Source of the DNA: Octopus vulgaris
Lineage: Eukaryota
Length of the DNA stretch: 64,000 nt
Assembly (NCBI GenBank): GCA_951406725.2
Contig: OX597823.1
Span: forward strand, 59,210,001 to 59,274,000
Direction of reading: 5' to 3'
Shown here one piece after another: positions 19,315-21,357 of the stretch. Position 1 is the stretch's first letter, and the number at the start of each line of letters is the position of its first letter. Made by a program: the position numbers.

Positions 19315-21357
19315 CTGCTGGTGCTGGTAGTGGTGGTGGGGAATATTCAGTGGCGGCAATTATAATATTGTATGAAGTTGCCACAATTCGCATGGCGTTG
19401 GTTTTCGCTTTGACATGTATAGTAATTCTGAACGTACTTGCAATGCTGTATTCTTGTTATTGTAGTTGTTTTGATCGCCAGACAGGGGAAAGACTGAGCA
19501 GGCACGTAATGAAAGGTGCTTCCTCTATGGCTATTCCACACTTTCTCTAAGTATTAGTTTCAAATTTTGACTCGTTACTACATCACAAGGGGCTAAACAC
19601 AAAGAGGGCGAACAAGGACGGACAAACGGATTAAGTCGATTATATCGACCACAGTGTGCAACTGGTACTTATTTAATCGACCCCGAATGGATGTAAGGCA
19701 AAGTCGACCTCGGTGGAATATGAACTTAGAACGTAGTGGCAGACGAAATACCTATTTCTTTATTACCCACAAGGGGCTAAACACAGAGGGGGCAAACAAG
19801 GACAGACATAGGTATTAAGTCGATTACACCGACCCCAGTGCGCAAATGGTACTTATTTAATCGACCCCGAAAGGATGAAAGGCAAAGTCGACCTCGGCGG
19901 AATTTGAACTCGCAACGTAATGACAGACGAAATACCTATTTCTTTATTACCCACAAGGGGCTAAACACAGAGGGGGACAAACAAGGACAGACATAGGTAT
20001 TAAGTCGATTACATCGACCCCAGTGTGTAACTGGTACTTAATTTATCGACCCCGAAAGGATGTAAGGCAAAGTCGACCTCGGCGGAATATGAACTTAGAA
20101 CGTAGTGGCAGACGAAATACCTATTTCTTTATTACCCACAAGGGGCTAAACACAGAGGGGGACAAACAAGGACAGACATAGGTATTAAGTCGATTACATC
20201 GACCCCAGTGTGTAACTGGTACTTAATTTATCGACCCCGAAAGGATGTAAGGCAAAGTCGACCTCGGCGGAATATGAACTTAAAACGTAGTGGCAGACGA
20301 AATACCTATTTCTTTATTACCCACAAGGGGCTAAACACAGAGGGGGACAAACAAGGACAGACATAGGTATTAAGTCGATTACATCGACCCCAGTGTGTAA
20401 CTGGTACTTAATTTATCGACCCCGAAAGGATGTAAGGCAAAGTCGACCTCGGCGGAATATGAACTTAAAACGTAGTGGCAGACGAAATACCTATTTCTTT
20501 ATTACCCACAAGGGGCTAAACACAGAGGGGGACAAACAAGGACAGACATAGGTATTAAGTCGATTACATCGACCCCAGTGTGTAACTGGTACTTAATTTA
20601 TCGACCCCGAAAGGATGTAAGGCAAAGTCGACCTCGGCGGAATATGAACTTAGAACGTAGTGGCAGACGAAATACCTATTTCTTTATTACCCACAAGGGG
20701 CTAAACACAGAGGGGGACAAACAAGGACAGACATAGGTATTAAGTCGATTACATCGACCCCAGTGTGCAACTGGTACTTAATTTATCGACCCCGAAAGGA
20801 TGTAAGGCAAAGTCGACCTCGGCGGAATTTGAACTCAGAACGTAACGGCAGACGAAATACCTATTTCTTTATTACCCACAAGGGGCTAAACACAGAGGGG
20901 GACAAACAAGGACAGACATAGGTATTAAGTCGATTACATCGACCCCAGTGTGCAACTGGTACTTAATTTATCGACCCCGAAAGGATGTAAGGCAAAGTCG
21001 ACCTCGGCGGAATTTGAACTCAGAACGTAACGGCAGACGAAATACCGCTAAGCATCTCGCCCGGCGTGCTAACGTTTCTGCCACCTCGCCGCCTTATACT
21101 TCTCTAAGTATTGACTATCTAAATATATCGTGTGATCACATACGGAATTCTTCATTTCTTGTCGTTATTGTTTTCGCGTATGTCTTAAGCGCAGACGTAG
21201 CTGTGTGGGAAGACGCTTGCTTCCTAACCACATAGTTCCGGGTTCAGTCCCACCGTATGGCACCTTGGGTAAGTATATTCTACTATAGCCTAGCAGTAAT
21301 CAAAGCTTTGCGTGTGGATTTGGTTGATGGAAAACTGAAAGACATCCGTCGTATATA

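What the first reader, a model, noticed from the sequence alone, without database searches (positions are those of the whole stretch)
19543..21112. SINE array with one head and 8 body units: candidate self-targeting, polar-growing retroposon
Seen: one tRNA-like head (A-box side) followed by eight 184-185-bp units (B-box, core, tail), all inside a single 13-bp TSD. Each unit junction is tail 'aaagaaata' joined to 'ggtatttcg', the sequence that follows 'gcttagc' inside the head. The same junction occurs at two other loci here (~1560 and ~41910). The head-distal unit is the most diverged and carries a remnant of the older tail type. Inference: the young subfamily inserts into pre-existing relatives at a fixed site between the A- and B-boxes, and the cDNA 5' end is resolved by homology with the resident head. 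This would add one unit next to the head per event, with the oldest unit distal, a leader-proximal, CRISPR-like chronology. The near-identical middle units suggest additional unequal-crossover expansion. Rolling-circle reverse transcription of a circularised RNA is an alternative.
Basis: partly seen in the sequence, partly recalled or inferred. Interest (0 to 1): 0.78.

Follow-up and report, generated by a model that had tools for sequence, protein, structure and literature searches.

The report
SINE copy grown into tandem array
A short retroposon (SINE) has turned into a small satellite-like array of one promoter-bearing head and eight head-less repeats, which shows how scattered mobile elements can seed tandem repeats; this kind of structure is already known from reptiles and bivalves.

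Summary
On the minus strand of 19543-21112 lie one 47-nt SINE head and eight head-less units (six of 185 nt, then 184 and 197), inside an exact 13-bp target-site duplication. All 7 junctions are identical. The same tail-to-position-48 junction recurs at 1564/1565 and, with an extra hexamer, near 41904-41910.

The eight units are not eight insertions. U1=U2, U3=U6 and U4=U5. U1-U6 share array-private changes, and U3-U6 carry a block otherwise seen only in distal U8. Most growth was therefore local unequal crossover or gene conversion. At most three layers remain: U8, U7, and the ancestor of U1-U6.

The seeding step does look retroposition-coupled and site-specific:
- 4 of 5 young-tail loci in the window sit head-to-tail on an older relative.
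- 3 of those 4 join at position 47/48.
- Distal units are more decayed.

Heads look as young as the proximal units. Insertion into a resident copy is therefore favoured only modestly over reverse-transcriptase template jumping.

The architecture matches SINE-derived satellites (PMC10702118) and bivalve TSD1-(SINE)n-TSD1 arrays (PMC11481361). It is a new member of a known kind.

The parts
19543..19555 (.). Target-site duplication, copy on the tail side
   Evidence: Matches 21100-21112 at 13 of 13 positions. These are the only two occurrences in the window at up to 1 mismatch.
19556..19752 (-). U8, the head-distal unit (197 nt). It belongs to an older subfamily and has a longer, different tail.
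   Evidence: 26 differences from U1 over 190 columns. Older-type markers at q125/128 and q171-175 are shared with A1 and B1. The tail module resembles the H1 tail at 19 of 22 positions.
19753..19936 (-). U7 (184 nt). It has the young tail but mixed subfamily markers.
   Evidence: 12 differences from U1 and 3 unit-private substitutions. It shares q125 T, q128 A and q192 C with U8, but q171-175 with the youngest type.
19937..20676 (-). U6, U5, U4 and U3 (4 x 185 nt). These are near-identical hybrid units.
   Evidence: U3=U6 and U4=U5, with 1 difference between the two pairs. They share q63-64 AC, q73 A and q80 T with U8, and the 3' part with U1/U2. The q71 C>T change in U4 and U5 creates the only T4 runs on the sense strand.
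20677..21046 (-). U2 and U1 (2 x 185 nt). These are identical head-proximal units.
   Evidence: 0 differences between them. They share the array-private extra C (q193) and q106 A with U3-U6.
21047..21093 (-). The single head (q1-47). It holds the 5' arm and apical loop of a conserved hairpin, and the junction site lies at its end.
   Evidence: blastn and nhmmer q1-232 hit at 20862-21093. In the fold, q31-43 pairs with q48-60 and the loop is q44-47. Across 17 family copies, 83.9% of cells pair, against 36.0-56.2% when the partner is slid; 6 of 13 pairs show two-sided changes.
21094..21099 (-). 6-nt leader between the TSD and the head
   Evidence: Read directly from the sequence.
21100..21112 (.). 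Target-site duplication, copy on the head side
1379..1795 (-). Locus A: a head plus two units, with the same tail-to-q48 junction at 1564/1565
   Evidence: The distal unit A2 has 8/119 singletons against 1/118 in A1. The ungapped search found no TSD.
2584..2990 (+). Locus B: a young-tail copy (from q11) joined tail-first to an older-type copy that starts at about q15
   Evidence: This junction position is different. Flanking low-complexity repeat matches at 13 of 15.
13405..13634 (+). Locus C: a clean monomer of the youngest subfamily, ending exactly at GAAATA
   Evidence: TSD matches at 16 of 16 (18 of 19 if extended), 13377-13392 and 13635-13650. It has 2/118 differences from the all-copy consensus.
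41671..42060 (+). Locus D: head, young-tail unit, an extra GAAATA, then an old-type-tail unit starting at q48, all in one TSD
   Evidence: The TSD copies at 41657-41668 and 42061-42072 match at 11 of 12. D2 has 8/100 singletons against 2/119 in D1.

Best explanation
This is a SINE-derived tandem array, a proto-satellite, built in two stages.

Stage 1, seeding (inferred). An older-subfamily SINE (head plus U8) inserted here and made the 13-bp TSD. Later, the 3' end of a younger-subfamily SINE RNA was reverse-transcribed from a DNA 3' end at position 47/48 of that resident copy. This position is the 3' edge of the apical loop of a conserved head hairpin. The upstream end of the new cDNA was then resolved through its homology with the resident copy. 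The result added no second head and no inner TSD. It added a head-less unit running from q48 to the tail end. The head itself may have been converted to the incoming sequence. This happened once or twice here (U7, and the ancestor of U1-U6) and independently at other loci.

Stage 2, growth (shown by the sequence). The units multiplied and exchanged segments locally, by unequal crossover and gene conversion. This gave identical neighbours and hybrid units.

The array has no evident cellular function. It records how an interspersed element becomes a tandem repeat.
For: Architecture and TSD.

Retroposition-coupled seeding:
- The left side of every junction is exactly the 3' terminus seen in the clean monomer C, whose tail abuts a 16/16 TSD.
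- U1-U7 carry youngest-subfamily markers (q171-175, tail q222) that U8 lacks. They are therefore not copies of U8.
- 4 of 5 young-tail loci in the window abut a same-orientation family member. Such sequence covers only 2,714 of 64,000 bp. By my hand binomial at 2.1% per locus, the chance of this is about 1e-6.
- 3 of the 4 junctions are at q47/48.

Sequential rather than one-shot:
- Distal units hold more singletons: 24/322 vs 7/356, p=7e-4. For the like-for-like pair, A1 vs A2 is 1/118 vs 8/119, p=0.036.
- Only distal units B2 and D2 carry large internal deletions.
- Residents are of three different tail types, as expected if targets are drawn from the standing population.

Local growth:
- U1=U2, U3=U6, U4=U5.
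- The partitions {U3-6,U8}, {U1-6,U8}, {U7,U8} and {U1-6} are mutually incompatible.

Precedent for the architecture:
- PMC10702118 (Background, Squam3 results and Discussion read).
Against: - Heads show few singletons: focal 1/46, A 1/46, D 0/46. They look like proximal units, not like the older distal units. A retained resident head should look old. This fits template jumping, or needs conversion of the head by the incoming cDNA. D's head does carry old-type markers (q19 T, q28 T), so the head evidence is mixed.
- The nick-side DNA end (...ATACC) is not complementary to the RNA tail, so there is no annealing rationale for the site.
- No partner LINE 3' end was found in the window, so no endonuclease preference is known.
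- The sample is tiny: 5 young-tail loci in one 64-kb window.
- Singleton counts for old-type units B2 and D2 may be inflated, because they have fewer close relatives in the comparison set.
- U7 lies between the hybrid units and U8. Strict head-side addition cannot explain this without further rearrangement.
- The hairpin is not more stable than shuffled sequence: z = -1.05 and -1.63.
Confidence: 0.45

Rival explanations
1. One-shot chimera by template jumping. During a single target-primed reverse transcription, the LINE reverse transcriptase copies a SINE RNA whose 5' end lies at q48. Such an end could arise from cleavage in the apical, anticodon-like loop, as for tRNA halves. The enzyme then jumps to the 3' end of another SINE RNA and finishes on a full-length RNA with its head. 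Local unequal crossover then expands the array.
For: - One outer TSD and no inner TSD.
- The left side of the junction is always a complete RNA 3' end.
- The junction lies exactly at the loop/stem boundary of an RNA hairpin that shows some covariation support. That fits an RNA-level cause better than a DNA-level one.
- Heads are as undecayed as the proximal units: 1/46, 1/46 and 0/46.
- Template switching is the usual explanation offered for module exchange in mollusc SINEs (PMC4758252, passages only).
Against: - Distal units carry more singletons than proximal ones in 3 of 3 two-unit loci: 24/322 vs 7/356. Only distal units have large deletions. Units made in one event should be the same age.
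- It needs three different tail types to be active together with the young subfamily.
- No clear solitary head-less copy starting at q48 with non-SINE DNA upstream was seen among 31 nhmmer hits. The copy at 242-360 starts near q50, but its upstream sequence is ambiguous.
Confidence: 0.2
2. Purely DNA-level internal tandem duplication of one inserted SINE, by slippage or unequal crossover. No second retroposition event is involved. This is what is usually assumed for SINE-derived satellites.
For: - The layout matches: complete head at one end, complete tail at the other, truncated units between. Unequal homologous recombination is the mechanism those authors suggest (PMC10702118 Discussion; PMC11481361 passages).
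- Local exchange clearly happened in this array.
Against: - U1-U7 differ from U8 at subfamily-diagnostic positions and match a monomer at another locus.
- U8 differs from the other units at 7 columns of the tail stretch after CTTGTG (one of them an extra T), far more than elsewhere.
- The identical breakpoint pair recurs at loci with unrelated distal units.
- The unit's right end equals a genuine retroposition terminus, as seen at locus C.
Confidence: 0.08
3. The whole multimer was retroposed as one long transcript from a multimeric master array elsewhere. The private variants shared among units would then come from that master.
For: - A single exact TSD encloses the whole array.
- Apart from the derived T4 runs in U4 and U5, the sense strand has no T4 terminator. 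Read-through of an ancestral array is therefore conceivable.
Against: - It only moves the question of how the master array arose.
- A transcript of about 1.5 kb from a SINE promoter is unusual (my own knowledge).
- The three compound loci in the window differ in unit content.
- U1=U2 identity alongside an 11% diverged U8 needs a heterogeneous master anyway.
Confidence: 0.07
4. Rolling-circle reverse transcription of a circularised 185-nt unit RNA, in the manner of a retrozyme.
For: The last 6 nt of the tail (GAAATA) are complementary to q50-55 (TATTTC), next to the junction. The two ends of a unit RNA could therefore be brought together. This complementarity may be chance.
Against: - No ribozyme or any other Rfam family matches inside the element at E up to 10: 0 of 17 matches.
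- Units from one circle should be born identical, yet U7, U8 and U1-U6 differ in subfamily markers.
- The head and U8's separate tail need extra jumps.
Confidence: 0.04

Closest known systems
SINE-derived satellites (sSat) of squamate reptiles (Vassetzky, Kosushkin and Ryskov 2023, PMC10702118; Background, Squam3 results and Discussion read)
   Same: - Tandem units correspond to part of a SINE, with a longer terminal unit reaching the SINE terminus.
- Some variants span the end of the head plus body plus LINE-derived region, at about 179 nt.
- Many short loci with few units coexist with SINE monomers.
- Longer or inner units are more homogeneous.
   Different: - The arrays are in a different host and a different SINE family.
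- Here the units belong to a younger subfamily than the terminal unit.
- Here the unit's end equals a real retroposition terminus. This points to a retroposition-coupled first duplication rather than the unequal recombination those authors propose.
- Chromosomal position and genome-wide copy number could not be examined.
Tandem-like SINE structures 'TSD1-(SINE)n-TSD1' in the bivalve Scapharca broughtonii (PMC11481361; passages found by term search only, figure not seen)
   Same: - One TSD encloses the array.
- The first SINE has a complete head.
- Internal copies are truncated at head and tail.
[quoted passage not shown]
- Arrays hold 4-15 units.
   Different: - In the passages I saw, that paper gives no junction-level or subfamily-level analysis. 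It suggests unequal recombination.
- Here the junction is mapped to a hairpin loop edge, and the units are shown to be mosaics of two or more subfamilies.
Multimeric or dimeric SINEs formed by tail-targeted insertion or amplified as dimers (Dip/B1 multimers and Alu, as summarised in the Discussion of PMC10702118)
   Same: Head-to-tail SINE copies, up to eight in a row. A young element prefers to land on a pre-existing relative.
   Different: Those multimers consist of full-length elements, each with its own head. Here only one head exists and the join is internal, at q47/48.
Chimeric retrocopies made by LINE reverse-transcriptase template switching (recalled from the literature on U6-L1 type chimeras; only the general statement in PMC4758252 was seen here)
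   Same: The 5' partner ends at a complete RNA 3' end. The 3' partner is 5'-truncated. A single TSD surrounds both.
   Different: In those chimeras the truncation point of the 3' partner varies. Here 3 of 4 joins share one position, and the 3' partner looks older.

Membership tests
SINE (LINE-mobilised short retroposon) | Insertions flanked by target-site duplications of variable sequence | tested here: met
   Focal 13/13, C 16/16, D 11/12, B 13/15 (low complexity). None was found ungapped for A.
SINE (LINE-mobilised short retroposon) | Head derived from a Pol III-transcribed RNA (tRNA) with internal A and B boxes | tested here: inconclusive
   ARAGORN found 0 tRNAs in the window. There is no Rfam tRNA match in 19000-21600 at E up to 10. 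Box-like motifs are visible by eye only, against recalled consensus. A conserved hairpin, q31-43 with q48-60, is present.
SINE (LINE-mobilised short retroposon) | Dispersed multi-copy family with subfamilies | tested here: met
   31 nhmmer hits at about 20 loci in 64 kb, with at least 4 tail types.
SINE (LINE-mobilised short retroposon) | 3' tail shared with a partner LINE | tested here: not met
   blastn with six tail segments found no match outside SINE copies. The RT-bearing remnants in the window end differently. The partner may lie outside the window.
SINE-derived satellite / TSD1-(SINE)n-TSD1 array | Head-to-tail units that are a portion of a SINE, with terminal units reaching the SINE's true ends | tested here: met
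   One head, eight units from q48 to the tail, a last unit with the full longer tail, and a single TSD.
SINE-derived satellite / TSD1-(SINE)n-TSD1 array | The same unit boundaries at several loci of the genome | tested here: met
   Three loci in this window share the q47/48 junction. The genome-wide number is unknown.
SINE-derived satellite / TSD1-(SINE)n-TSD1 array | Satellite-like behaviour: long arrays, homogenisation, subtelomeric or heterochromatic location | tested here: inconclusive
   Inner units are homogenised (0-6 differences among U1-U6), but there are only 8 units. Chromosomal position is not testable.
Retrozyme / ribozyme-bearing tandem repeat | A self-cleaving ribozyme in each unit | tested here: not met
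   0 of 17 Rfam matches at E up to 10 lie inside the element, and none is a ribozyme.
Dimeric or multimeric master SINE (amplifies as a multimer) | All multimers share unit order and diagnostic positions | tested here: not met
   The distal units of the three q47/48 loci have three different tail types: U8 long tail, A2 young tail, D2 old-type tail.
Polar, chronologically ordered array (CRISPR-like growth) | Each unit is an independent acquisition added at one end, with age increasing with distance | tested here: not met
   There are identical pairs and incompatible shared variants among units. Distance to the monomer runs 8, 8, 11, 11, 11, 11, 11, 31. Only a coarse order holds: U8, then U7, then U1-U6.

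The most novel reading that the evidence does not exclude
A SINE subfamily homes into one fixed position of resident relatives: the 3' edge of the anticodon-like hairpin loop, between C47 and G48. Because the target is homologous to the incoming copy, each event resolves into the precise addition of a head-less unit. Retroposition itself, rather than chance recombination, would then be the first step from interspersed SINE to satellite. Short arrays would keep a coarse, head-proximal-youngest record of successive subfamilies. A variant of equal novelty: the fixed position reflects tRNA-half-like cleavage of SINE RNA, followed by reverse-transcriptase template jumping.
Probability: 0.3. Interest if true: 0.7.

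Novelty: new member of a known kind. Interest (0 to 1): 0.42.

Why it matters
How satellites are born from interspersed repeats is poorly documented. The reptile study calls the first duplication a matter of recombination or chance re-insertion, and leaves open whether such arrays exist outside squamates (PMC10702118, Discussion).

This array is small and young enough that its history can still be read. The terminal unit is of an older subfamily. The inner units are of a younger one. The junction is shared by independent loci and equals a retroposition terminus. There are clear traces of later unequal exchange.

If the site-specific seeding holds genome-wide, it gives a concrete and testable mechanism for the SINE-to-satellite transition. 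It would also explain why some SINE families spawn arrays and others do not. If it does not hold, this is one more ordinary SINE-derived tandem repeat.

Tried and rejected
- Ribozyme, tRNA or other known RNA in the unit. Rfam at E up to 10 over 19000-21600 gave 17 weak matches, all in flanking low-complexity DNA and none in the element. ARAGORN found nothing.
- Thermodynamic support for the head hairpin. Fold z-scores are -1.05 (232 nt) and -1.63 (109 nt); 27 and 13 of 200 shuffles fold as well. Only the covariation count gives modest support. That count is biased, because the structure was derived from one of the aligned sequences.
- Partner LINE. No LINE 3' end resembling any SINE tail was found in the window. 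RT remnants exist but were not linked to the SINE.
- Solitary head-less copies starting at q48, which would favour the RNA 5'-end model. Among 31 nhmmer hits, only 242-360 starts near q50, and its upstream sequence is ambiguous. The hit at 63239-63382 is too diverged to judge.
- CpG decay as a clock. Kept CpGs are 9-10 of 10 in proximal units and 6-8 of 10 in distal units. The direction agrees with the singleton test, but the numbers are too small to use alone.
- Head age as a discriminator between insertion and template jumping. The results are mixed.
- Microhomology at the junction. There is none between the tail end and the bases before q48. The 6-nt tail/q50-55 complementarity is noted, but no mechanism I could test uses it.
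- Simple internal duplication of U8. Rejected on subfamily markers.
- Literature. Searches for octopus or cephalopod SINE arrays and for multimer/template-switching reports returned nothing on point. PMC9795677 and PMC13282606 were checked by term search only and say nothing about SINE arrays.
- Organism. It was not determined. My impression that the repeat landscape is cephalopod-like is recall only.
- External genome data. No eukaryotic genome collection was available.
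Full report
**What is there**

Tandem Repeats Finder reports a 185-bp period array at 19584-21046, with 7.9 copies, 96% matches and score 2639. Read on the minus strand, the element runs in this order:
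- a 13-bp direct repeat, 21112-21100
- a 6-nt leader
- a 47-nt SINE head, 21093-21047
- eight units U1-U8, each starting GGTATTTCG: six of 185 nt, then 184 nt (U7) and 197 nt (U8)
- the same 13-mer again, 19555-19543

The 13-mer matches 13 of 13. At up to one mismatch it occurs nowhere else in the window, against 0.12 expected. All 7 internal junctions are the same 18-nt string. With up to three mismatches this string occurs 9 times in the window against 0.08 expected. The two extra sites are 1556-1573 and 41901-41918. Two details need correction. The third locus carries an extra GAAATA hexamer and a G-to-A change at the junction. U8's different end is a complete, longer tail, and its last module resembles the tail of another subfamily copy at about 45050-45075 (19 of 22 positions; 0 of 1000 shuffles score as high).

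**The family in the window**

A 232-nt query (head plus U1) finds 27 blastn and 31 nhmmer hits at about 20 loci. The copies share positions 1-166 and then fall into at least four tail types. Five loci carry the 'young' tail that ends in GAAATA.
- The focal array.
- Locus A (1379-1795, minus): a head plus two units.
- Locus B (2584-2990): a copy from q11, followed directly by an older-type copy that starts at about q15.
- Locus C (13405-13634): a clean monomer whose tail abuts a 16/16 TSD.
- Locus D (41671-42060): head, young unit, then an old-type-tail unit from q48, inside an 11/12 TSD.

The tRNA origin of the head could not be confirmed. ARAGORN found nothing, and no Rfam family matches inside the element at E up to 10. 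That also removes ribozyme-based explanations.

**The eight units are not eight events**

The unit alignments and the variable-site table show the following.
- U1=U2, U3=U6 and U4=U5, with one difference between the last two pairs.
- U1-U6 share an extra C (q193) and q106 A. Neither is seen in any of the five young-type units from other loci.
- U3-U6 share q64 C, q73 A and q80 T with the distal U8, but not with U1, U2 or U7.
- U7 and U8 share q192 C.

The partitions {U3-6,U8}, {U1-6,U8}, {U7,U8} and {U1-6} cannot all fit one tree. The units must therefore have exchanged segments by unequal crossover or gene conversion. Differences to monomer C run 8, 8, 11, 11, 11, 11, 11, 31 from U1 to U8. 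That is a step and not a gradient. At most three layers can be told apart:
- U8, which has older subfamily markers at q125/128 and q171-175 and the long tail
- U7, which has mixed markers
- the ancestor of U1-U6, which has the youngest markers, as in C

A unit-by-unit, CRISPR-like chronology is not supported.

**The seeding step still needs something beyond recombination**

U1-U7 cannot be copies of U8. They carry the markers of a younger subfamily that exists as a monomer elsewhere, and their right end is exactly the retroposition terminus seen at locus C.

Four of the five young-tail loci sit directly upstream of a same-orientation family member. Yet family sequence other than the young units covers only 2,714 of 64,000 bp. 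My hand binomial, at 2.1% per locus for the right orientation, puts the chance of this near 1e-6. Three of the four joins are at q47/48, and their distal partners have three different tail types. They do not descend from one dimeric master.

Folding puts q47/48 at the 3' edge of the apical loop (q44-47) of a 13-bp hairpin, q31-43 with q48-60. Over 17 family copies:
- 83.9% of cells pair, against 36.0-56.2% when the partner is slid
- 6 of 13 pairs show two-sided changes
- 1 of 500 shuffles reaches the observed covariation

The fold energies are not better than shuffles (z = -1.05 and -1.63). The structure was also derived from one member of the alignment. The hairpin is therefore only moderately supported.

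**Insertion into a resident copy, or a template jump?**

Both models extend a DNA 3' end ...ATACC on the 3' end of a young SINE RNA. They differ in where that end comes from: a nick in a resident genomic copy, or a nascent cDNA that has reached an RNA 5' end at q48.

Evidence favouring sequential insertion:
- Singleton substitutions over q48-166 are fewer in proximal than in distal units. The counts are A1 1/118 vs A2 8/119, B1 4/119 vs B2 8/103, and D1 2/119 vs D2 8/100. Pooled, that is 7/356 vs 24/322, Fisher p=7e-4. The like-for-like pair A1/A2 gives p=0.036.
- Only distal units have large deletions.
- CpG retention points the same way: 9-10 of 10 kept in proximal units, 6-8 of 10 in distal units.

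- Heads have 1/46, 1/46 and 0/46 singletons (focal, A, D). That resembles the proximal units.
- Heads of old solitary copies are not unusually conserved: 1/46 to 6/46.

This fits template jumping, or replacement of the resident head by the incoming cDNA during homology-guided resolution. D's head nevertheless carries markers typical of old-type copies. I therefore favour insertion into a resident copy with homology-guided resolution, but only modestly: about 0.45 against 0.2 for the template jump.

The 6-nt complementarity between the tail end and q50-55 is real. I could attach no tested role to it.

**Comparison with what is known**

[quoted passage not shown] Those are tandem units that are a portion of a SINE, with a longer terminal unit reaching the SINE end. 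One variant spans the end of the head, the body and the LINE-derived region. Those authors propose unequal recombination or re-insertion for the first duplication, and leave open whether such arrays occur outside squamates (PMC10702118; Background, Squam3 section and Discussion read).

A bivalve study describes arrays of 4-15 units inside one TSD. The first SINE has a complete head, the internal copies are truncated at both ends, and the last copy has a complete tail (PMC11481361; passages only, figure not seen).

Searches for cephalopod or octopus reports and for multimer or template-switching reports found nothing closer. The source organism of the window was not determined.

I file the array as a new member of this known kind. 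What it adds is junction-level and subfamily-level evidence that the first duplication was coupled to retroposition at a fixed site.

**Limits**

- All inference rests on one 64-kb window with five young-tail loci.
- No eukaryotic genome collection was available, so the decisive census, orthologous-locus comparison and RNA-end mapping could not be done.
- Singleton counts for old-type units may be inflated by the small number of close relatives in the comparison set.
- Supplementary figures of the two key papers were not seen.

Noticed in passing
window 21186-21330 (+), with further copies at 15711-15855, 23524-23586, 30638-30772 and 44288-44370: A second, unrelated SINE-like repeat family lies immediately beside the array. 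Its other copies match at 73-76% identity. It was not classified.
   Followed up: partly
window 44856-45310 (+): Two full-length copies of another subfamily (H1, H2) lie head-to-tail, about 14 nt apart. Each has its own head and a similar 5' leader. This is a different kind of tandem from the focal array. Its origin was not examined.
   Followed up: no
window 56179-59874 (+), 8602-9679 (+) and 35173-35562 (-): Remnants of non-LTR retrotransposons. Pfam matches are RVT_1 at 1e-23 (57685-58446), zf-RVT (58844-59470), and weaker RVT_1 in the other two. The largest ends in an (AAT/ATT)n run, like the old-type SINE tails. No tail homology to the SINEs was found.
   Followed up: partly
window 63784-64000 (+): A 29-bp tandem repeat of 7.5 copies at 74% matches runs off the end of the window.
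   Followed up: no
window 20285 and 20470 (units U5 and U4): A single C>T change at q71 creates the only T4 runs on the sense strand of the array. These would act as Pol III terminator-like sites and would stop any read-through from the single head.
   Followed up: no
window 2584-2890 (locus B): The two adjacent copies B1 and B2 share two rare CpG-type changes, q31 T and q48 A, in the head region. This suggests that this stretch was copied from one to the other, or duplicated when the compound formed.
   Followed up: partly
whole window: Microsatellite density is very high: 128 TRF rows in 64 kb, mostly AT-, AC- and ATAG/ATGT-type. SINE copies also cluster, for example three fragments in 10404-11098 and two in 63239-63622.
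   Followed up: no
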